Source of the DNA: Escherichia coli | Lineage (GTDB): Bacteria > Pseudomonadota > Gammaproteobacteria > Enterobacterales > Enterobacteriaceae | Direction: 5' to 3' (one strand) | Length of the DNA: 64,000 nt | NCBI GenBank assembly: GCA_029351405.1 | Contig: GCA_029351405.1_4841.1 | Part shown: piece after piece, positions 5,724 through 55,063 of the stretch | Position numbering within the stretch: position 1 is the stretch's first letter | Layout: the number at the start of each line of letters is the position of its first letter | Program-made: the position numbers and the translations under genes | The notes under the pieces: model-generated | Seen by the model: the letters and a program-made list of their open reading frames with translations, nothing else | Database searches by the model: none | What the model was told of the DNA's origin: nothing

Positions 5724-5731
5724 AATCTAGT

Positions 5732-5739
5732 CCTAAATA
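5732..5739 (+). promoter_or_regulatory. late-promoter-like box (CCTAAATA) upstream of baseplate gene
   Basis: TAAATA core 34 nt upstream of ATG at 5774, same spacing as exact TATAAATA boxes elsewhere in window. Confidence 0.35.
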
Positions 5740-5773
5740 GCCATAACACTCTATCTATTTAAGGGCTGAGACC

Positions 5774-11786: not shown

Positions 11787-12020
11787 TCACACCTCTTTGT
11801 GATTCTTCATCTTGCGAACAGTGCCTACAAACCCAAGATCCTTCCCGCAATGGGTGCAGATAGCGTGGCAAGCATGGTTCTCACGATAGGTGCTGTGTTT
11901 GCAGCGCCATTGCTTGAACGCCGAACGGGCAACTAGGATCACGGCGATCAAGAAGACGATACCGGATATCTGAAGTTCAACCAAGAACTTCGCCCACCAG
12001 AAACTCATATACTCACCCAT
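11787..12020 (-). CDS. small membrane protein with C-x2-C zinc-finger-like motif
   Basis: Start at internal Met just downstream of ligase stop; TM helix then CHAICTHCGK. Confidence 0.35.
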   Translation of the reverse strand: MGEYMSFWWAKFLVELQISGIVFLIAVILVARSAFKQWRCKHSTYRENHACHAICTHCGKDLGFVGTVRKMKNHKEV

Positions 12021-13443
12021 TATCCTTCTCCAACAGGAATGCGATGTTTTCAATGTACGCTTTCTGTATCGCATAGACTTCATCCAGTGTGTTGGCCACT
12101 TTCTTGTCAATGCGGACTTCTACAAGGCGAGGTAGGAACAAAGACTTCATCGCATCATCTGTCTTGTCCTGTACGCCATTGGAGAGCACTGCGGCGATCT
12201 TGCCAATGTAGTCGCCCTGGTTCTCCCACATATGGCGTCTCAGCTCATCTGAGATCCCTGAGACGCCAACAACAAGCAGGCCGTCGGAAGTTTTACAAAT
12301 CAGTGAGCCAAAAGTCTTGGCGTGTTTGCCTTTCTTGTCGGCCTCGTTGAAGCCCACGATTTCAAGGTCACACTCAACCTCCATCTTCAGCTTCAGACCT
12401 TCAGAAGAAGTACCATCTTCCCACGGCATGTCTGCGGCCTTACATATCGTGCCTTCTTCTTTGCGAGCCAGCGCGTCTTTGAAGTGGTCTACGGCTTCGG
12501 CAAATGAGTGAACAACACGAGTTTCCTGAACCTGAACCAGACCGTCGTCTTCATCAAACAGTTGCTGGATGATATCGAAGCGGCGCTCATACGGGGTGTC
12601 CACGCGCTGGGCGTTGAACCAGTTGTCGTACGGGATAACATCCCACACCCGGTAGATCACCCGATAACGATCTTCTAGGGGTTCTCCTGTCTGAATCACG
12701 CTGTTGAGTTTACCGTTACCGACAGCACGAGGCAGGATGGTATTCGACTTGAGGTCAACCACGAGAAGTTCACCATGGAACACACTCTCACCAATCCCCG
12801 CATCGTAGATCAGGTCTTTGAACACCAGTGAAAGGTTATCAACCGAACCACCTGCGATAAGGGAACCGGAGCGAGAGCGAATCTCAGGCTCTTTATTGTA
12901 CCGACATATGATATTGGCGAACATACCGTCTGACTTCAGCTGGCTGTAGACGCCACGCTTGAAGTCCATCTTCTTCAGCAGGTCAATCGTCATGTTGTCA
13001 TAACGATGATACGGAAGAATGTTGATCAGGCGTCCAGTGCCTCCAGCGGCGTTGAATGCAGCGTTGATGCCCTTCTCAGCGATACCCGCCTTGATATCAC
13101 GGTCTAGGATCATCTGAATGAGTTCGTGGTATTGGGGATCCATCTTCAGGGCGACAGAGGCCAACAGGGCGTCAGCCTTTTGGCCACTGACAAGACGCTG
13201 CGCCATCTGGTCGAGGACGTCATAGACTTCGCTGATGTCATCAGTCTTCTCACGGACGAGCATGCGAGGATACGCGCTGAGCTTCAACTCAGTCCGATAG
13301 AACGACGTCATTGGGTCATAGACATACTGCAAGAAGTCTGCCAAGTCTGGGTTGTTCTTGAATGCTTCGGTCAGCACAGCTTTCTTCGCATTGCTGCCTT
13401 TGGTTTCGCGAAGTCGGTGGACTGTTTCAAGGATAGGGATCAT
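12013..13443 (-). CDS. ATP-dependent DNA ligase
   Basis: Adenylation motif I K-S-D-G (QLKSDGMF), 476 aa with nucleotidyltransferase/OB-fold layout. Confidence 0.75.
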   Translation of the reverse strand: MIPILETVHRLRETKGSNAKKAVLTEAFKNNPDLADFLQYVYDPMTSFYRTELKLSAYPRMLVREKTDDISEVYDVLDQMAQRLVSGQKADALLASVALKMDPQYHELIQMILDRDIKAGIAEKGINAAFNAAGGTGRLINILPYHRYDNMTIDLLKKMDFKRGVYSQLKSDGMFANIICRYNKEPEIRSRSGSLIAGGSVDNLSLVFKDLIYDAGIGESVFHGELLVVDLKSNTILPRAVGNGKLNSVIQTGEPLEDRYRVIYRVWDVIPYDNWFNAQRVDTPYERRFDIIQQLFDEDDGLVQVQETRVVHSFAEAVDHFKDALARKEEGTICKAADMPWEDGTSSEGLKLKMEVECDLEIVGFNEADKKGKHAKTFGSLICKTSDGLLVVGVSGISDELRRHMWENQGDYIGKIAAVLSNGVQDKTDDAMKSLFLPRLVEVRIDKKVANTLDEVYAIQKAYIENIAFLLEKDNG

Positions 13444-13452
13444 GTGGTGTCT

Positions 13453-13485
13453 CCAGGGTTATATGTGCTGCTATTATAACCCTGG
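13453..13485 (-). promoter_or_regulatory. 11-bp perfect inverted repeat abutting ligase ribosome-binding site
   Basis: CCAGGGTTATA-N11-TATAACCCTGG; 3' arm overlaps the GGAG Shine-Dalgarno 7 nt upstream of ligase ATG. Confidence 0.5.
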
Positions 13486-13556
13486 GGACTTCAATAGATT
13501 ATTGGCGGGTGTGGGATTTTGCCTGGCCGATAATGAGGTTAGTGTGTAATCTTCAG

Positions 13557-13898
13557 TTATTTCTTCGGGGGTTCAATTGAGGTGAAAGAATCCTTCCAAC
13601 TCTTGAATTTTTCAACCAGGGCTTCTTTACCCAGCTCGTCATTTGACACGCTGTGAATATAGGCGAATGCTCCATAGCCGGATCCTGGCATAGCCTTGCA
13701 GATGCGCAGACTAACCAAAGAATCTCCTACGGAAACAAGATAGTGGTCACGACGATTGTTCAGGGCATAATGGTTGTCGTGAAACTTGTCAACAATAACA
13801 CAGTTCTGAGGTTCGACGTCGATCGGTAGCCCGTTAGCTTCGGATCCACCGCGCCCAAGCACGCAGCCTGGGAATAATGTTTCTACGAGTGTGGTCAT
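13557..13898 (-). CDS. hypothetical protein
   Basis: 113 aa ORF with ribosome-binding site; no recognised motif. Confidence 0.45.
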   Translation of the reverse strand: MTTLVETLFPGCVLGRGGSEANGLPIDVEPQNCVIVDKFHDNHYALNNRRDHYLVSVGDSLVSLRICKAMPGSGYGAFAYIHSVSNDELGKEALVEKFKSWKDSFTSIEPPKK

Positions 13899-14130
13899 GG
13901 TCTGTTCCTTCTGTAAGTTCCCATGTATTATATGGGTGAATAGTTTATTGAATTATTTGTTGTGGAAACCCAGAGCCTTGTGGACTTCTTCGCGATTTAA
14001 TTTCGGCCTGAGACTCTGTGCGATTAATCCGGCGCTCGCCATTCCATTTCAACATCGATCGCATCTATCAGACAACGGATCTCAGCGCATCAGGGGCTTA
14101 CCCAACAGCCAGTTGAAATACTCGCGCATG

Positions 14131-16642: not shown

Positions 16643-16706
16643 GATGTGCTCCTGGTTTACATTCAGATCATAGAATTATACCCTATGACCCGCTTTATTG
16701 AATTGC

Positions 16707-22879: not shown

Positions 22880-22894
22880 AGACTGCTCCAATAA

Positions 22895-22923
22895 ACAAAA
22901 GGAGCTGCTATTATAGCAGCCCC
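22895..22923 (-). terminator. rho-independent terminator
   Basis: GCTGCTA-loop-TAGCAGC hairpin followed by TTTTGTTTATT on minus strand, after stop of 22955..23776. Confidence 0.5.
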
Positions 22924-22954
22924 TTCATCTATTGAACAGTTTCTGAACTTAAAT

Positions 22955-27813: not shown

Positions 27814-27881
27814 TTCTTAATTTCCTCTGTTTCCGCCCCTCAGGGCTATTCTGTTACATGTATTTTCAGTTTGCTACAAAG

Positions 27882-27899
27882 CGGGGTAATTATACCCCG
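27882..27899 (-). promoter_or_regulatory. GC-clamped hairpin (GGGGTATAATTACCCC) in gp32 leader
   Basis: Stem CGGGG/CCCCG, loop carries TATAAT-like sequence; about 70 nt upstream of gp32 ATG. Confidence 0.4.
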
Positions 27900-27912
27900 A
27901 TCTTACATTGAA

Positions 27913-28643: not shown

Positions 28644-28944
28644 GGAACACCCCCAAGGTTGTCAGCACGAAACGAACCATAATGATAACCAGCAACATCA
28701 CTGTAGAAAACACTACACGCTTGATCATTTTATCGCGCATGTGGATGAACTGATATGAGAGGATAGCCTCGGCCTGTTGATCGGCACGAACGTTCGTGTC
28801 ACGATGTGGGGACAGTGTGTAGAAGTTGATCTGGTACACATACGCATGAACCAGAGTGAAGAACGACTTCACCCAGACCAAGACAACCACTAACAACAAG
28901 GCGAACGTCAGGAAGTTCGCCAACAACCAATAATCGACCATCAT
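28630..28944 (-). CDS. membrane protein
   Basis: Multiple hydrophobic helices (LLANFLTFALLLVVVLVWV; VVFSTVMLLVIIMV). Confidence 0.4.
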   Translation of the reverse strand: MMVDYWLLANFLTFALLLVVVLVWVKSFFTLVHAYVYQINFYTLSPHRDTNVRADQQAEAILSYQFIHMRDKMIKRVVFSTVMLLVIIMVRFVLTTLGVFHAAV

Positions 28945-29531
28945 ACACCTCTGTTGAAGTCTGGATTATTCTCAATGAAGTAAGAGCCACAAGCCATTAT
29001 CGCAAACGAATCCACGAGGTCATCGATTGGCTTGGGATCCTTAACTTCCAACATATCCATTATACCGCGCATGCTAACATTGAACAGTGACTCGAAGTGA
29101 GCGATCATGGCATGTTTATCCGCGTTGCCCTTGTCGGTGAACATCTTCTTCACGTGTGATGGCGTGACGATCTGGAAGTCGAAATTGTTACGGCGCAGGG
29201 CTTGCTTCAACAGTGAGGTATTCTCTGCGGTCTGGCATATGTTGTTGGAGTTCTTAGAGTTGCCCATAGCATACCCTTCAAGAGTGATCGCATCCGGCTT
29301 CTCAGTCAACAGGACAGCCTCAGCCCATTTACAGATGTTATAGAAGCGTTCTTCTGGGGTCTCCCACTTCGGTTGCTTCATGATAAGGATATTCTGACGA
29401 ATCTGAGTGCAGTACTTCTCCACAGTATAATATGCGTAGAAGCGCAGATGATCAAAATCAAGAGGGTCTTTATCATCCCAGAAGCACAGGGATGGACAGC
29501 CATAGGAGTAGTCGATTCCGCAATATTTCAT
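28941..29531 (-). CDS. RuvC-like Holliday junction resolvase
   Basis: RNase H-fold motif order CGIDYS ... DAITLEGYA ... DDLVDSFAIMA matching RuvC catalytic acidic residues. Confidence 0.55.
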   Translation of the reverse strand: MKYCGIDYSYGCPSLCFWDDKDPLDFDHLRFYAYYTVEKYCTQIRQNILIMKQPKWETPEERFYNICKWAEAVLLTEKPDAITLEGYAMGNSKNSNNICQTAENTSLLKQALRRNNFDFQIVTPSHVKKMFTDKGNADKHAMIAHFESLFNVSMRGIMDMLEVKDPKPIDDLVDSFAIMACGSYFIENNPDFNRGV

Positions 29532-29582
29532 GTAAATAGCCCATAACGAAGTTTCATTGGTGTATGGGCTATTTACGCCGGG

Positions 29583-34361: not shown

Positions 34362-34823
34362 CTACTCCGCCAGGGTGATCACAACCATATTTAAGACTGT
34401 GTCGATAGCTCGGCCTGTTTCCTCTTCATGGAGGGTTTCGGCGCGGAGGTGCACGTCGGTGATGAAATTGTCGATGTGCATTGACGTCAGGTACGGGCGG
34501 TGCTGGCTGACCGGACGGTTGATCAGTACATAGTTACGCAGTGTGTTGAAGTCCTGCTGAGAGCACCCGGTGGTGTCAATGCGCAGGAAGCGTTCATTGT
34601 GGCTTGTCTTCAACTCAGTTACTTTGCCGAGGTAGACCAGAGGTCCATTGCGACCGATACGGAACATAACATCAACAACAGACTTGAAGATTTCGCGTTC
34701 AATCAGTGCGGTGGGTGACCAGCAGATCTCTTCTTTGTCGTCGGCGTACAGGGTGTCGATCACCAGAGGGAGTTGAATGTAACCGAAGTTGTGCAGTGGG
34801 TTGGTGAGTACCTTGTTTGTCAT
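34362..34823 (-). CDS. hypothetical protein
   Basis: Start at Met inside conserved AGGAACTATATCATG cassette; no motif. Confidence 0.45.
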   Translation of the reverse strand: MTNKVLTNPLHNFGYIQLPLVIDTLYADDKEEICWSPTALIEREIFKSVVDVMFRIGRNGPLVYLGKVTELKTSHNERFLRIDTTGCSQQDFNTLRNYVLINRPVSQHRPYLTSMHIDNFITDVHLRAETLHEEETGRAIDTVLNMVVITLAE

Positions 34824-38619: not shown

Positions 38620-38702
38620 GGTGTTCCTCGGGTTTGTTTACGCAGGTTTTATTATACGCCGCCCTCATAGATTGAAGGCGGCAGGGAGGGTTGGCGGGTT
38701 AC

Positions 38703-39647: not shown

Positions 39648-40442
39648 TTAACTGAAACTCTTGTATGCTGCTGCGAGCTTCGTGTCGTACTGGTTCTTGG
39701 CATACGCCGGACCATTATAGCGCCGCGCAAACTCAGCCCAGTTCTTGTCCTTCAGAGCCTGCCAGAGCTTGGCGTCAGCCTTGATGAACTTCACGAATGC
39801 CATCAAATGAGCACGTTCTCCTGTCAGGAAGTCGTTGAACATCTCCTTGGCGTTGGCATATCCACAGACCTGGCAGTTGAATCCCATGATCTGGAAGAGA
39901 CCGTAAGAGGCGCTCTCGTACGCACAATCCTCGTCGATGTTGATCGCTGCATGAAGTCGATCCAACTCCGCGTCGCCGCCCGTGTACCCGCCTGCGGAAG
40001 GGCTGACCAACGTCGGGTACATATGTCCCATGGCATTCGCCCGAGCCTGTCCGAACTTCGCCATCAGCTTCTTATACATGATGTGGCGCTCAAATAATGT
40101 CTTGATCTTACCTGATTTGGTGAAGCCCGTGCCGCGCGACTCAACCTGATTCACCGCCTTGACAGAGGCAAGGTCAACACCCAGATCGTTAGCAGCATCA
40201 ATCAGGTCTGACTCAGTTAGATGATCCTGATGGGCGTCTCCGGCGTTGCGAATAGCATAGGAGGTCTTTGGACCCACGATACCATCAATGACAAGTCCCG
40301 CACCCGCCTGAACCGTCTTGACGGCGTTCTCTGTTACCTTGCCAAAGATACCATCAGCGACGAGGGTGAAGCCGATTTTGTTGAGGCTATTCTGAAGTGC
40401 CTTCACTTCAGTGCCACGGTTGCCAAGTTTTAGAATGGCCAT
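39648..40442 (-). CDS. endolysin: peptidoglycan-binding domain plus N-acetylmuramidase-like catalytic domain
   Basis: N-terminal PG_binding_1-like repeat (LKLGNRGTEVKALQNSLN ... DGIFGKVTENAV ... DGIVGPKT); C-terminal domain with EYESASYGLFQIMGFN-type motif; start at Met with GGAGG ribosome-binding site. Confidence 0.7.
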   Translation of the reverse strand: MAILKLGNRGTEVKALQNSLNKIGFTLVADGIFGKVTENAVKTVQAGAGLVIDGIVGPKTSYAIRNAGDAHQDHLTESDLIDAANDLGVDLASVKAVNQVESRGTGFTKSGKIKTLFERHIMYKKLMAKFGQARANAMGHMYPTLVSPSAGGYTGGDAELDRLHAAINIDEDCAYESASYGLFQIMGFNCQVCGYANAKEMFNDFLTGERAHLMAFVKFIKADAKLWQALKDKNWAEFARRYNGPAYAKNQYDTKLAAAYKSFS

Positions 40443-40445
40443 AAG

Positions 40446-40479
40446 AAATACCTCCACAATGAATGCAGAGGTATTTAAA
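40446..40479 (-). promoter_or_regulatory. SD-sequestering hairpin overlapped by late-promoter-like box (TTTAAATA)
   Basis: 9-bp perfect stem AAATACCTC / GAGGTATTT with 13-nt loop; 3' arm contains endolysin GGAGG; TAAATA-core box overlaps 5' arm. Confidence 0.5.
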
Positions 40480-41518: not shown

Positions 41519-42573
41519 CGCACTTTCCTCAGTTCAGCGAATTGTAATGATGCGGCCATACCTTGGTAAACGTTCTTGGCGATCAGCTTCAGGAGGTCTT
41601 GTATGGACATGTTGCCCTTTGATGGCATGACCATGTCGTTGATATCCTTCCAAGGAACGTCTGGTGGGAACAGTACAACTTTGACACCTTTATCTATCAT
41701 CTTCTGAATACCGTCACACACCTGCGGGTTCCGGTACTGATTATCAGGGATATAAATGTCGCCCTTCACGCTCAGTAGATCAGCATCGGCCGATGCAAGA
41801 CAGTTGGGTAGGAACAGGCTGTCAATCGGACCTTCCACAACCAGCTTGGTCTTGTGAATGTTCACCCGGTCTTCACCATACACCTTAGTGTCTTCATCCT
41901 TGGGCTTGACTGTTGCGTAGCGCAGTGTCGCACTCTTGTCGAATGCACGCCCCTGAACGATCTTCATGCGACCATCCTGAGTCCAGAACGGAATCACCAG
42001 CCGCTCATCGTCGGGGATCTTCAGCTGCTTCTCAGGGTTCGTTTCGAACTGGAGTAGATCCTGGCGGAAGTGCTGTGTGTAATATAGGAGGGTCAAAGTG
42101 CTCTCCGGCAGTCCACGCCACTGTACGTACTGTCGAGCCTTATGGTCAGGCGGTAGCAGATCAAGCCGTAGCATATTGCCGAGGAGGCTCTCGTCGCGTT
42201 TCGCCGCCACTGAGCCAATACGGGCGGTCTGTGTCAGCTTTGGCAACGGCTTCAGGGAAGGAAGTGGTCTGCCCGACGTATCACCCAGCAGACGGAACTT
42301 CTCCATGTTGTACTCTGTTGAGAGGCGTTCGTCGAACTTCTTCAGCCAGAACTCAAATGACCAGCCATTCATCTGGTTGCAGTTGTGGCACTTGAACCGG
42401 AAGCAGTCATTATCTCGATCGAAGAAAAAATAACCGCGTCGCTTATTAGCACTTTTGAGAGAATCTCCACAAAGCGGGCATCTAAAATTTGCGACAGACC
42501 CAACGCGTTCCCACTTGAATTTATCGAGTCTGGGAGCAACGTAATTTATGAATTGTTCATCAAGAAATTTCAT
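41515..42573 (-). CDS. DNA primase (gp61-like, zinc-ribbon plus TOPRIM)
   Basis: Zinc-ribbon CPLCGD ... CHNCN and TOPRIM-like acidic motif VVEGPIDSLFL; start at Met abutting upstream stop. Confidence 0.7.
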   Translation of the reverse strand: MKFLDEQFINYVAPRLDKFKWERVGSVANFRCPLCGDSLKSANKRRGYFFFDRDNDCFRFKCHNCNQMNGWSFEFWLKKFDERLSTEYNMEKFRLLGDTSGRPLPSLKPLPKLTQTARIGSVAAKRDESLLGNMLRLDLLPPDHKARQYVQWRGLPESTLTLLYYTQHFRQDLLQFETNPEKQLKIPDDERLVIPFWTQDGRMKIVQGRAFDKSATLRYATVKPKDEDTKVYGEDRVNIHKTKLVVEGPIDSLFLPNCLASADADLLSVKGDIYIPDNQYRNPQVCDGIQKMIDKGVKVVLFPPDVPWKDINDMVMPSKGNMSIQDLLKLIAKNVYQGMAASLQFAELRKVR

Positions 42574-43184
42574 TAGATCTTCGGCCTCTGGAACACTTCG
42601 GTCACAGTATAGTCTACACCACGACTTTGAGCTATACACAGTTGTCGCCAAGCCCCATACAGGATATTCTGCTCCCCGGCAGTGTTGCGCTCAAAGTGGG
42701 CGAAGCCGTCGAGGAGTTTCATGTAGCTGCGCATAAGCTGGGTAACGGTTCTTCCTCTCTTGATCTGTTCATCAAGGTACTTCTGATAATGCTCTGGTGA
42801 TGACAATGAAGAGTACTTCATGTCTGGCACATGAACTGGCATCAGGGACTTGCGGGGTGTGAAGTAGAACAACCCCCACTTTGGTGGCAGGTCTTCAACC
42901 CTGATCACGTCCTGAGGGCAGACATAAAAGCGGTATGCGCCCATGCCCGTCGTCGGATCCATGCGATGAGGCTTCTTCTTGTCGGTAAGGAAATCAGAGC
43001 GAGACACCTTCACTTCCATCAGGATAGAGCAACCGCCGGAACGGAACCCGATGGCATCAGGTGATTCTTTGTTGTCAAACGAATTTGGCTCGATGAAGAC
43101 AGCGCCGCAGTTCATGCGACCGCGCAGGTAGTTGGCCGCGATTTCACATCCTTCGCGGTGTGACGGGATAAAGATTTTGCTCAT
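42573..43184 (-). CDS. PD-(D/E)XK nuclease-like protein (putative)
   Basis: Candidate catalytic triad PDAIGF ... ILMEVKVS (D ... E-x-K). Confidence 0.4.
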   Translation of the reverse strand: MSKIFIPSHREGCEIAANYLRGRMNCGAVFIEPNSFDNKESPDAIGFRSGGCSILMEVKVSRSDFLTDKKKPHRMDPTTGMGAYRFYVCPQDVIRVEDLPPKWGLFYFTPRKSLMPVHVPDMKYSSLSSPEHYQKYLDEQIKRGRTVTQLMRSYMKLLDGFAHFERNTAGEQNILYGAWRQLCIAQSRGVDYTVTEVFQRPKI

Positions 43185-43241
43185 TGTCCTTTCCTTTTGG
43201 TGAATAATGAGCAAAATTATATGCCTTTATTTCGTATTGAC

Positions 43242-54535: not shown

Positions 54536-55063
54536 TCAGATACCGATAAATTCATCAAAAGATCCAACAACCTTCTTCACCGAGATATTGTCATTCTCAA
54601 TCAGGAAGTTGCTGTCGTTTTTGGCTGCTGTGGCCCAGTCATCGGCAAGTTCGTTGCCTTCGTGCCCCGCATGACCCTTAACCCATTTTAGTTCAACATC
54701 ACAAATTGAACAAACGAGATCATAGATTCTGAACAGATCTTTGATGAGTTCAACGTTCTTTTCTGGAAACCCCTGATACTCCCACTTCGCTCGCCATTCG
54801 GTGACGCTCTTGATGGCATATTGGCTGTCAGACCAAATTGTTGCCTTTGGTATTCTGCGCTCACCCTTTCCTGAGAATGCCCACAGTAGCTTCAATGCGT
54901 TGGTCACACCCAACAACTCGGCGATATTGTTAGTGGACGGGGGAGGTAGATGACCGAAGAACACCTTCCATTGCATACCCGTTATTGGCCTGATGACAAA
55001 TGCCCATCCTGCGGCCTGGTTGGTCTTCGGGTTAGAACCCCCGTCAGAATAAATTTCTATCAT
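54536..55063 (-). CDS. rnhA: ribonuclease HI (cellular RnhA type)
   Basis: RNase H1 motifs IYSDGGSNP, GWAFV, TNNIAELLG, VKGHAGHEGNELAD; start at internal Met (MIEIYSDGG). Confidence 0.75.
   Translation of the reverse strand: MIEIYSDGGSNPKTNQAAGWAFVIRPITGMQWKVFFGHLPPPSTNNIAELLGVTNALKLLWAFSGKGERRIPKATIWSDSQYAIKSVTEWRAKWEYQGFPEKNVELIKDLFRIYDLVCSICDVELKWVKGHAGHEGNELADDWATAAKNDSNFLIENDNISVKKVVGSFDEFIGI

What the first reader, a model, noticed from the sequence alone, without database searches (positions are those of the whole stretch)
13453..13485. 11-bp perfect inverted repeat abutting the DNA ligase ribosome-binding site
CCAGGGTTATA-N11-TATAACCCTGG lies immediately 5' of the ligase start; its 3' arm runs into the GGAG Shine-Dalgarno. 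It is not followed by a U-tract, so it is unlikely to be a simple terminator. It may occlude the ribosome-binding site, act as a processing site, or be a dimeric protein operator.
Basis: seen in the sequence. Interest (0 to 1): 0.45.

Follow-up and report, generated by a model that had tools for sequence, protein, structure and literature searches.

The report
Promoter-in-hairpin switch masking ligase ribosome site
The palindrome upstream of this phage's DNA ligase gene is real and conserved. It most likely works like a known phage T4 device: a hairpin hides the ribosome-binding site in read-through RNA, and a promoter inside the hairpin makes a shorter, translatable RNA.

Summary
The 11-bp perfect inverted repeat at 13453-13485 is real. 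It extends to 15 bp (13449-13489) with one C·A mismatch. The window is an Ackermannviridae phage, and the ligase gene (12013-13443) is on the minus strand.

On the ligase mRNA the hairpin has a predicted free energy of -18.9 kcal/mol, and its 3' arm contains the GGAG Shine-Dalgarno.

It is invariant across four genera and 271 phage records. It lies 35 nt from the ATG, like the other promoter-like sites in this genome, and an invariant A follows 7 nt downstream in an otherwise variable loop.

Read-through RNA would need 14-20 kcal/mol to open the initiation region. RNA started at the internal promoter would need 3-6.

The same layout recurs in the window at the endolysin gene, the RuvC-like resolvase gene and a gene next to the primase gene, with compensatory changes between genera. 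This matches T4 genes e and 49 and the T4-type promoter/stem-loop cassettes (PeSLs).

Weak points: no -35 element, no statistically significant covariation at the ligase hairpin, and no transcript data. Verdict: a new member of a known kind, of moderate interest.

The parts
13490..13503 (-). Conserved A/T-rich upstream box, AATAATCTATTGAAG. It marks the start of the conserved block. In Kuttervirus it contains the stop codon of the upstream gene.
   Evidence: Mean pairwise identity is 0.81 among six lineages, against 0.32 just upstream. BLAST homology of the Serratia IME250 block to other genera begins here.
13475..13489 (-). 5' arm of the hairpin, GUCCCCAGGGUUAUA.
   Evidence: consensus structure from RNAalifold
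13473..13478 (-). Perfect -10 hexamer TATAAT, spanning the end of the 5' arm and the first two loop bases.
   Evidence: Invariant in 23 of 23 aligned sequences from four genera (segment identity 1.0). It lies 35 nt from the ATG, like the other TATAAT/TAAATA sites in the window.
13464..13474 (-). Loop of 11 nt, variable in sequence but fixed in length.
   Evidence: Alignment columns 39-47, which cover most of this loop, have mean identity 0.57. The invariant exceptions are A42, A45 and C46.
13466..13466 (-). Predicted transcription start. It is an A, the 7th nt after the hexamer, and would give a 23-nt leader.
   Evidence: Inferred. A45/C46 are invariant in an otherwise variable loop. The leader is listed.
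13449..13463 (-). 3' arm of the hairpin, UAUAACCCUGGAGAC.
   Evidence: Identity 0.90 among lineages; pairs listed.
13451..13454 (-). Shine-Dalgarno GGAG, inside the 3' arm.
   Evidence: Invariant columns 57-60. Predicted paired with probability about 1 in read-through RNA.
12013..13443 (-). ATP-dependent DNA ligase gene (476 aa), the regulated gene.
   Evidence: PF01068; annotated as DNA ligase in relatives.
13557..13951 (-). Co-directional upstream gene (113 aa, phrog_5022) with its own TCAAT-N14-TATAAT promoter-like site at 13927-13951. It is the presumed source of read-through transcripts.
   Evidence: no terminator-like site between it and the ligase gene.

Best explanation
The palindrome is the stem of a composite promoter/stem-loop cassette that makes ligase translation depend on where the mRNA started.

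RNA polymerase arriving from the upstream co-directional gene transcribes both arms. The RNA then folds into a 14-15 bp hairpin that buries the GGAG Shine-Dalgarno, so ribosomes cannot initiate on ligase. The hairpin may also slow or attenuate that transcription.

A promoter whose -10 hexamer (TATAAT) sits at the junction of the 5' arm and the loop starts transcription about 7 nt downstream, at a conserved A inside the loop. That RNA lacks the 5' arm, cannot form the hairpin, and has an accessible 23-nt leader.

Ligase output is thus insulated from whatever lies upstream, and the upstream region differs between genera.

Shown here:
- the hairpin and the position of the SD inside it;
- conservation of the -10 hexamer and its spacing to the ATG;
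- the energetic difference between long and short RNAs;
- recurrence of the same layout at other genes, with compensatory changes.

Inferred:
- that TATAAT is an active promoter;
- the position of the start site;
- that read-through transcripts exist;
- that translation differs between the two RNAs.
For: 1. Structure. The hairpin is -16.5 to -21.3 kcal/mol in six lineages. RNAalifold recovers the same helix independently. 92% of cells are paired across 13 distinct sequences, against 25-55% when partners are slid by 1-3 columns.

2. Strand. By my count from the pair tables, five of six one-sided transitions give G·U on the ligase-sense strand. Pair 28-56 occurs as A-U, G·U and G-C.

3. Promoter.
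- TATAAT is invariant, including its last two bases, which lie in the otherwise variable loop.
- In Serratia phage IME250 two 5'-arm changes break pairs but create TGnTATAAT, an extended -10.
- A/C at the expected +1/+2 positions are invariant.
- The distance from the hexamer to the ATG is 35 nt, within the 30-44 range (mostly 34-40) of the 19 TATAAT/TAAATA sites upstream of genes.
- More distant Ackermannviridae that lack the hairpin still have TCAAT-N13/14-TAAAAT starting 36-40 nt before the ligase ATG.

4. Energetics. Opening SD-2 to +13 costs 14-20 kcal/mol in read-through RNA and 2.6-7.4 (mostly 3-6) in RNA from the predicted start, in all six lineages.

5. Read-through is plausible. The upstream gene is co-directional, has a promoter-like site, and no terminator-like site follows it.

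6. Recurrence.
- Three of the four long perfect inverted repeats in the window lie at promoter/initiation-region junctions.
- The promoter region is unusually complementary to its own initiation region for 5 of 19 genes (binomial p = 0.002).
- The gene next to the primase gene has TATAAT plus a hairpin over its AUG, with a compensatory U-A to C-G change in Vi01 and PWKp5.
- The RuvC-like resolvase and endolysin genes have late-type TAAATA in the 5' arm and the initiation region in the 3' arm, conserved with compensatory changes in three genera.

7. Precedent.
- T4 genes e, soc, 49 and I-TevI (PMC3014915).
- PeSL cassettes, in which the stem-loop commonly overlaps the -10 box and an SD and ATG sit at the 3' end (PMC2839356).
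Against: - There is no recognisable -35 element. The hexamers at 16-18 nt spacing match TTGACA at only 1-2 of 6 positions, and the promoter scan reports nothing here. The TCAAT box of the genome's main promoter class is also absent.
- Covariation at the ligase hairpin is not statistically significant. No pair shows a double-sided change relative to the commonest pair, and shuffles reach the observed scores (206 of 500). Five of six wobble-compatible transitions gives p of about 0.1.
- In the short transcript the SD is still predicted to pair weakly with coding sequence.
- Initiation-region hairpins as a class are not more frequent than hairpins at random positions. Regions around TATAAT sites upstream of genes do not fold more stably than regions around other TATAAT sites.
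- No transcript mapping for any Ackermannviridae phage was found in the library.
Confidence: 0.6

Rival explanations
1. The stem-loop acts mainly on the upstream transcription unit. It would be an attenuator, a pause site or a 3'-end-protecting hairpin, which is the role proposed for PeSL stem-loops. On this view the overlap with the ligase SD is incidental, because the cassette is compact.
For: PeSL stem-loops overlapping the -10 box reduced downstream reporter expression like a strong terminator (PMC2839356). Other promoter-like sites in the window sit inside or next to hairpins, and some of those are clear terminators with T-runs (22899-22925, 27880-27900). The block lies at an indel boundary.
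Against: There is no U-tract, and the terminator scan finds nothing. The invariant base of the stem (GUC/GAC) extends the helix across the SD, which is not needed for termination. This role is not exclusive of SD masking.
Confidence: 0.2
2. The hairpin is an RNA operator or processing site. It would be bound by a translational repressor (like T4 gp43 or RegA operators) or cut by a double-strand-specific RNase, and it would be present in all ligase mRNAs.
For: It is a stable conserved hairpin containing the SD. T4 replication genes use translational operators (PMC3014915).
Against: This needs transcripts that always include the 5' arm, and it leaves the invariant TATAAT, its spacing and the conserved +1 A unexplained. 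The helix of 14-15 bp is shorter than typical RNase III substrates. The loop sequence, which is usually part of a protein operator, is variable. There is no Rfam match.
Confidence: 0.1
3. The palindrome is a DNA operator for a dimeric regulator that overlaps the -10 hexamer and represses the ligase promoter.
For: In this window the palindrome is perfect, its half-sites are 22 bp apart centre to centre, and it overlaps a -10-like hexamer.
Against: There is a single copy in 64 kb. Half-site symmetry is lost in Kuttervirus and Taipeivirus through changes that keep RNA pairing. Other promoter-embedded hairpins in the genome have unrelated arm sequences and covary between genera. The suggested HTH protein has no supporting annotation.
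Confidence: 0.05
4. It is a chance palindrome with no function.
For: About 29% of shuffled windows contain at least one perfect inverted repeat of 11 bp or more.
Against: The block is conserved in 271 phage records from four genera, while the flanking sequence and the loop diverge.
Confidence: 0.02

Closest known systems
T4 gene e (lysozyme)-type masking hairpins with an internal promoter; also T4 genes soc, 49 and I-TevI, and Aeh1 mobE
   Same: A hairpin sequesters the SD or AUG in transcripts that start upstream. A promoter lies in the region encoding the 5' strand of the structure, so its own transcripts lack that strand and are translated (PMC3014915). The window's endolysin and RuvC-like resolvase genes show the same layout with late-type TAAATA motifs. 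These match T4 genes e and 49 by function.
   Different: The T4 cases use late (gp55) promoters, TATAAATA, to delay late proteins. Here the internal element is a sigma-70-type TATAAT without a -35, and the gene is a replication enzyme. The likely purpose is therefore insulation from variable upstream transcription rather than late timing. Nothing has been shown experimentally here.
PeSL (promoter-early stem-loop) cassettes of T4-type phages (Arbiol et al. 2010; Comeau et al. 2014)
   Same: The order of parts matches: upstream stop codon in an A/T-rich stretch, a sigma-70-like promoter, a stem-loop overlapping the -10 box, then SD and ATG. PeSLs sit at boundaries of variable gene content (PMC2839356, PMC4122927). 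The ligase block sits next to a three-gene indel between genera.
   Different: PeSLs have near-consensus -35 and -10 boxes and G-run/C-run stems, are repeated many times per genome, and are proposed to act as terminators. The ligase block has no -35, a unique stem sequence, no U-tract, and a stem that reaches into the SD. PeSLs were described for T4-like phages. The two PeSL papers I searched do not describe them for Ackermannviridae.
T4 translational operators of replication genes (gp43, gp32, RegA targets)
   Same: RNA elements overlapping the initiation region of DNA-replication genes.
   Different: Those are protein-bound operators present on every transcript. Here an embedded promoter gives an alternative 5' end, and the loop is not conserved.

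Membership tests
T4 gene e-type masking hairpin with internal promoter | A stable RNA helix that includes the SD and/or the start codon of the regulated gene | tested here: met
   GGAG lies inside the 3' arm. The hairpin is -16.5 to -21.3 kcal/mol in six lineages, and the SD is paired with probability about 1 in long RNA.
T4 gene e-type masking hairpin with internal promoter | A promoter within the DNA encoding the 5' strand or loop, so that its transcripts lack the 5' strand | tested here: inconclusive
   There is an invariant TATAAT at the arm/loop junction with typical spacing to the ATG and a conserved +1 A. However, there is no -35, the scan tool makes no call, and the start site has not been mapped.
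T4 gene e-type masking hairpin with internal promoter | Upstream-initiated transcripts read into the gene | tested here: inconclusive
   The upstream gene is co-directional, has a promoter-like site, and is followed by no terminator-like site. No transcript data exist.
T4 gene e-type masking hairpin with internal promoter | Long transcripts are poorly translated and short ones well translated | not testable with these tools
   Only a computed opening cost is available: 14-20 versus 2.6-7.4 kcal/mol.
PeSL promoter/stem-loop cassette | A sigma-70-like promoter with -35 and -10 boxes preceded by an A/T-rich stretch that holds the upstream stop codon | tested here: inconclusive
   The -10 is perfect. 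The A/T box AATAAT is present and holds the upstream stop codon in Kuttervirus. The -35 is absent.
PeSL promoter/stem-loop cassette | A stem-loop between the -35 and -10 boxes or overlapping the -10, with SD and ATG at the 3' end | tested here: met
   The 5' arm ends inside TATAAT, and the SD and ATG follow.
PeSL promoter/stem-loop cassette | A repeated motif family in the genome, associated with indels or variable regions | tested here: inconclusive
   The ligase block's own sequence is single-copy. A related class, TCAAT-N12-16-TAWAAT, occurs 9 times against 0.27 expected. The block adjoins a three-gene indel between genera.
PeSL promoter/stem-loop cassette | The stem-loop terminates or attenuates upstream transcription | not testable with these tools
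   No U-tract and no terminator call. A reporter assay or 3'-end mapping is needed.
Intrinsic (Rho-independent) terminator | A G+C-rich stem followed by a U-run | tested here: not met
   The stem is followed by ACCACAUGAUCCC. There are 0 terminator-like sites in 12900-14100.
Dimeric DNA operator | Two-fold symmetric half-sites kept identical in relatives; often several copies per genome | tested here: not met
   Half-sites differ at 2-3 positions in Kuttervirus and Taipeivirus. There is one copy in the window.
Curated RNA families (Rfam 15) | A match to a covariance model | tested here: not met
   No match at E of 1 or lower in 12900-14100.

The most novel reading that the evidence does not exclude
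Ackermannviridae may use promoter-embedded hairpins that mask translation initiation regions as a genome-wide rule, across temporal classes. The cases seen here are sigma-70-type TATAAT cassettes at the ligase gene and at a gene next to the primase gene, and late TAAATA cassettes at the endolysin and RuvC-like resolvase genes. Each such gene would then be translated only from its own promoter. Alongside this, a previously undefined promoter class (a TCAAT box centred near -30, N14, then TATAAT, then about 29 nt to the ATG) sits where T4's MotA box sits. That would imply an unidentified activator or sigma appropriator in a family reported to lack MotA and AsiA.
Probability: 0.3. Interest if true: 0.6.

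Novelty: new member of a known kind. Interest (0 to 1): 0.4.

Why it matters
Ackermannviridae (Kuttervirus, Agtrevirus, Limestonevirus, Taipeivirus) are widely used as therapeutic and biocontrol phages. Their transcriptional programme is essentially unmapped: the founding genome papers state that early and middle promoters could not be identified (PMC3184105).

This element gives a concrete, testable regulatory unit. It comes with a predicted start site (13466, minus strand) and precise mutations to make. It also suggests that the T4 trick of choosing the mRNA 5' end to gate translation extends to a replication gene and to a distant family.

For phage engineering, inserting cargo upstream of such cassettes should not perturb ligase expression. 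Deleting the 5' arm should.

Tried and rejected
- Searched the window for further copies of the palindrome arm and for TTGAAG-N8-12-TATAAT. Only the ligase site was found, so it is not a repeated operator.
- Rfam scan of the locus: nothing.
- The sigma-70/terminator consensus scan called neither a promoter nor a terminator at the site.
- Covariation statistics on 23 sequences (13 distinct): pairing is high but not above shuffles. I therefore do not claim proven covariation for the ligase hairpin.
- Tested whether initiation-region hairpins are generally enriched at gene starts: they are not.
- Tested whether regions around TATAAT sites upstream of genes fold more stably than regions around other TATAAT sites: they do not (Mann-Whitney p = 0.61).
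- A metagenome scan for more ligase relatives returned one near-identical locus. An IMG/VR scan with an alignment added only lineages at 54% identity or less, which lack the block.
- Literature searches for Ackermannviridae transcript maps found none. One search was badly framed and wasted.
- The hairpin upstream of the 44258 gene (TATAAATA in the loop, CCCCGAGGAG in the 3' arm) is not conserved in Vi01, so I dropped it as an example.
- The perfect 11-bp inverted repeat inside the ligase coding sequence (12233-12268) is not kept as a common structure in other genera.

Full report
**What the window is**

The region around the finding is 97% identical to Escherichia phages YX22, A221 and AV101. 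These are Ackermannviridae, subfamily Aglimvirinae. The 476-aa ORF at 12013-13443 on the minus strand carries the ATP-dependent DNA ligase domain (PF01068, E = 1.4e-15) and is annotated as DNA ligase in relatives. Everything below is read on the minus strand, the ligase sense strand.

**The observation**

The perfect 11-bp arms (13453-13463 and 13475-13485) with an 11-nt spacer are present as reported. The repeat extends to 15 nt per arm with one C·A mismatch (13449-13463 / 13475-13489).

On the mRNA it reads GUCCCCAGGGUUAUA-AUAGCAGCACA-UAUAACCCUGGAGAC-ACCAC-AUG. The GGAG Shine-Dalgarno lies inside the 3' arm, 7 nt before the AUG. No U-run follows, and the terminator scan finds nothing.

The hairpin alone folds at -18.9 kcal/mol. 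The 141-nt context has z = -2.5 against shuffles.

Perfect inverted repeats of 11 bp or more with 3-25 nt loops number four in the window, against a mean of 0.35 in 200 dinucleotide shuffles.

The last four bases of the 5' arm plus the first two loop bases spell a perfect TATAAT (13478-13473).

I aligned the 70 nt before the ligase ATG from 23 loci. These cover Agtrevirus-like phages, Limestonevirus, Kuttervirus including Vi01, and Taipeivirus including PWKp5 and Serratia phage IME250. The alignment shows a sharply bounded conserved block:

AATAAnyTATTGAAGTC-yyyGGGGT-TATAAT-N10-ATAACCCyGGAGAC-N5-ATG.

Mean pairwise identity among six lineage representatives is as follows:

| Segment | Identity |
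|---|---|
| Just upstream of the block | 0.32 |
| A/T box | 0.81 |
| 5' arm | 0.78 |
| TATAAT | 1.00 |
| Rest of the loop | 0.57 |
| 3' arm | 0.90 |
| SD-AUG spacer | 0.56 |

The only other invariant loop positions are A42 and A45-C46. A45-C46 are the 7th and 8th bases after the hexamer, which is where a sigma-70 start site is expected.

The block is found in 271 phage records, all covering at least 80% of the query.

**Is the hairpin selected as RNA?**

RNAalifold independently returns the same helix. Across 13 distinct sequences, 92% of cells form standard pairs. When the 3' partners are slid by 1-3 columns, only 25-55% do.

The variation consists of one-sided transitions. By my count from the pair tables, five of six yield G·U on the ligase-sense strand, and these would be A·C on the antisense strand. 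Pair 28-56 occurs as A-U, G·U and G-C.

This argues for sense-strand RNA pairing and against a symmetric DNA operator. However, the evidence is statistically weak. No pair has a double-sided change relative to the commonest pair, shuffles reach the observed score in 206 of 500 trials, and five of six gives p of about 0.1. I therefore treat covariation at this hairpin as suggestive only.

**Is TATAAT a promoter?**

For:
- It is invariant even where it lies in the variable loop.
- In IME250 two 5'-arm substitutions break two pairs but create TGnTATAAT, an extended -10. The hexamer is thus kept at the expense of the stem.
- The hexamer begins 35 nt before the ATG. The 19 TATAAT or TAAATA sites found 18-75 nt upstream of gene starts in the window lie 30-44 nt from the ATG, mostly 34-40.
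- More distant Ackermannviridae have no hairpin but still carry promoter-like sites beginning 36-40 nt before the ligase ATG: CTCAAT-N14-TAAAAT (Miltonvirus KNP4 and relatives) or TTCAAT-N13-TAAAAT. A ligase-proximal promoter is therefore older than the hairpin.

Against:
- There is no -35. The hexamers at 16-18 nt spacing match TTGACA at only 1-2 of 6 positions, and the scan tool calls nothing.
- The TCAAT box of the main promoter class is missing.

The genome papers for CBA120 and AG3 found only eight canonical sigma-70 promoters. They say that early and middle promoters could not be identified (PMC3184105, PMC3121705). Non-canonical -35 regions are therefore the norm in this family.

**Consequence for translation**

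I computed the free energy needed to make SD-2 to +13 single-stranded:
- RNA starting 150 nt upstream needs 14-20 kcal/mol in all six lineages.
- RNA starting 6-9 nt after the hexamer needs 2.6-7.4 kcal/mol, mostly 3-6.

The short leader still pairs weakly with coding sequence. The difference of 10-13 kcal/mol is nonetheless large.

Upstream lies a co-directional 113-aa gene (13557-13898) with its own TCAAT-N14-TATAAT site. No terminator-like site lies between it and the ligase gene, so read-through RNA is plausible.

**The same layout elsewhere in the window**

Three of the four long perfect inverted repeats lie at promoter/initiation-region junctions.

1. *Gene 42573-43184, next to the primase gene.* The sequence is TATAATTTTGCTCATT-N20-AATGAGCAAAAT. 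The 5' arm begins inside the hexamer and the 3' arm covers the AUG. In Vi01 and PWKp5 the arms are TTTGCCCATT/AATGGGCAAA and TTGCCCAT/ATGGGCAA. This is a compensatory U-A to C-G change that also alters codon 2.

2. *Gene 28941-29531, a RuvC-like Holliday-junction resolvase* (phrog_159, E = 1.7e-53). The sequence is GTAAATAGCCCATA-N17-TATGGGCTATTTAC-ATG. A late-type TAAATA motif lies in the 5' arm; in PWKp5 it is TATAAATA, the T4 late consensus. Compensatory substitutions and a compensatory indel are seen across three genera.

3. *Gene 39648-40442, the endolysin* (phrog_1224, E = 4.7e-134). The sequence is TAAATACCTCTGC-N7-GTGGAGGTATTT-CTT-ATG, with the SD in the 3' arm (-15.6 kcal/mol). It is conserved in three genera with a G·U to G-C change.

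In a permutation test, the promoter region was in the top 5% for complementarity to its own initiation region, compared with other genes' initiation regions, for 5 of 19 genes (binomial p = 0.002).

Broader claims failed. Initiation-region hairpins are not enriched overall. Regions around TATAAT sites upstream of genes do not fold more stably than regions around other TATAAT sites.

**Comparison with what is known**

In T4, genes e (lysozyme), soc, 49 (endonuclease VII) and I-TevI have initiation regions sequestered in hairpins in early read-through RNA. Late promoters lie in the DNA encoding the 5' strand, so late RNAs are translated (PMC3014915). The endolysin and resolvase cassettes here are functional counterparts of T4 genes e and 49.

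T4-type phages also carry PeSL cassettes. These consist of an upstream stop codon in an A/T-rich stretch, a sigma-70-like promoter, a stem-loop commonly overlapping the -10 box, then SD and ATG. They sit at boundaries of variable regions, and the stem-loop acts as a terminator or attenuator (PMC2839356, PMC4122927).

The ligase block has this order of parts:
- In Kuttervirus the upstream stop codon lies in its A/T box.
- It adjoins a three-gene indel. Vi01 and PWKp5 have three extra genes between the orthologue of 13557-13898 and the ligase gene.
- Homology between genera starts exactly at the block.

It differs from PeSLs in four ways: it lacks a -35, its stem sequence is unique, it has no U-tract, and its stem reaches into the SD.

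**Conclusion**

I put the best explanation at confidence about 0.6. The element is a composite promoter/stem-loop cassette in which read-through RNA has the ligase SD masked and RNA from the embedded promoter does not. This insulates ligase expression from a variable upstream region.

| Rival | Confidence |
|---|---|
| The stem-loop chiefly attenuates or terminates the upstream unit | 0.2 |
| An RNA operator or processing site | 0.1 |
| A DNA operator | 0.05 |
| Chance | 0.02 |

It is a new member of a known kind and of moderate interest. Its main value is as a precise, testable entry point into the unmapped transcription programme of Ackermannviridae.

Noticed in passing
window, minus strand: 13927-13951, 16675-16701, 22910-22935, 27889-27911, 29059-29083, 38651-38675, 43216-43240, 54685-54709; plus strand: 2798-2822: There is a promoter-like class, TCAAT-N12-16-TAWAAT, with 9 matches against 0.27 expected and 0 of 100 shuffles reaching 9. 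Seven of the nine have perfect TATAAT on the minus strand, and six of those begin 34-38 nt before a gene's ATG. The TCAAT box is centred near -30. That is too close for a canonical -35 but is where T4's MotA box sits, in a family reported to lack MotA and AsiA (PMC3184105).
   Followed up: partly
window 40440-40477 (-), upstream of the endolysin gene 39648-40442: A late-type TAAATA lies in the 5' arm of a 12-13 bp hairpin (AAAUACCUCUGC / GUGGAGGUAUUU) whose 3' arm holds the SD. It is conserved in Vi01 and PWKp5. This is the same arrangement as T4 lysozyme gene e.
   Followed up: partly
window 29532-29576 (-), upstream of the RuvC-like resolvase gene 28941-29531: A 14-bp perfect hairpin ends directly at the ATG and has (G/C)TAAATA in its 5' arm. 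Compensatory substitutions and an indel are seen across three genera. It is the functional counterpart of T4 gene 49. The annotated start codons in Vi01 and PWKp5 differ from the conserved MKYCGIDYS start and are probably mis-called.
   Followed up: partly
window 43174-43221 (-), upstream of gene 42573-43184 (phrog_631, next to the primase gene): TATAAT runs into a 12-bp perfect hairpin whose 3' arm covers the AUG and codons 2-3. There is a compensatory U-A to C-G change in Vi01 and PWKp5 that changes codon 2 from Ser to Gly.
   Followed up: partly
window 22880-22940 (-): A terminator-like hairpin (GAAGGGGCUGCUAU-A-AUAGCAGCUCCUU followed by UUUGUUU) has TATAAT across its tip. In a longer fold, TTCAAT pairs with the downstream SD region. 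A 52-nt core is identical in this window and Vi01 and has four substitutions in PWKp5.
   Followed up: partly
window about 38657-38690 (-), upstream of nrdA: A hairpin (CCGCC...GGCGG) encloses the TTCAAT box just before TATAAT. In Vi01 it reads UCGCC/GGCGA, a compensatory change. Its function is unknown.
   Followed up: no
window 12233-12268, inside the ligase coding sequence: A fourth perfect 11-bp inverted repeat (GGCGTCTCAG...CTGAGACGCC, -21.6 kcal/mol) lies in the VGVSGISDELRR coding segment. It is not kept as a common structure in Vi01, PWKp5, IME250 or KNP4.
   Followed up: yes
window, minus strand, leaders of the genes starting at 34823, 47779, 48077, 59279, 62637 and 63196: A repeated leader, TTGAAA-n-AGGAACTATAtc-ATG, precedes several small genes. 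At three of the six starts (59279, 62637, 63196) it follows a G+C-rich hairpin, for example GGCGGGGTAATCATACCCCGCC. This looks like a paralogous gene/leader family or a repeated cassette.
   Followed up: no
window 5724-5773, between gp4 (-) and gp48 (+): Two divergent late-type motifs (CCTAAATAG on each strand) form an imperfect palindrome. The palindrome is not kept in Vi01, so these are probably just back-to-back late promoters.
   Followed up: partly
window 13498-13540 (-): A stretch of about 40 nt (ATTATCGGCCAGGCAAAATCCCACACCCGCC) just upstream of the ligase block is shared by Agtrevirus-like and Taipeivirus phages. It is absent from Kuttervirus and Limestonevirus, and its role is unknown.
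   Followed up: no
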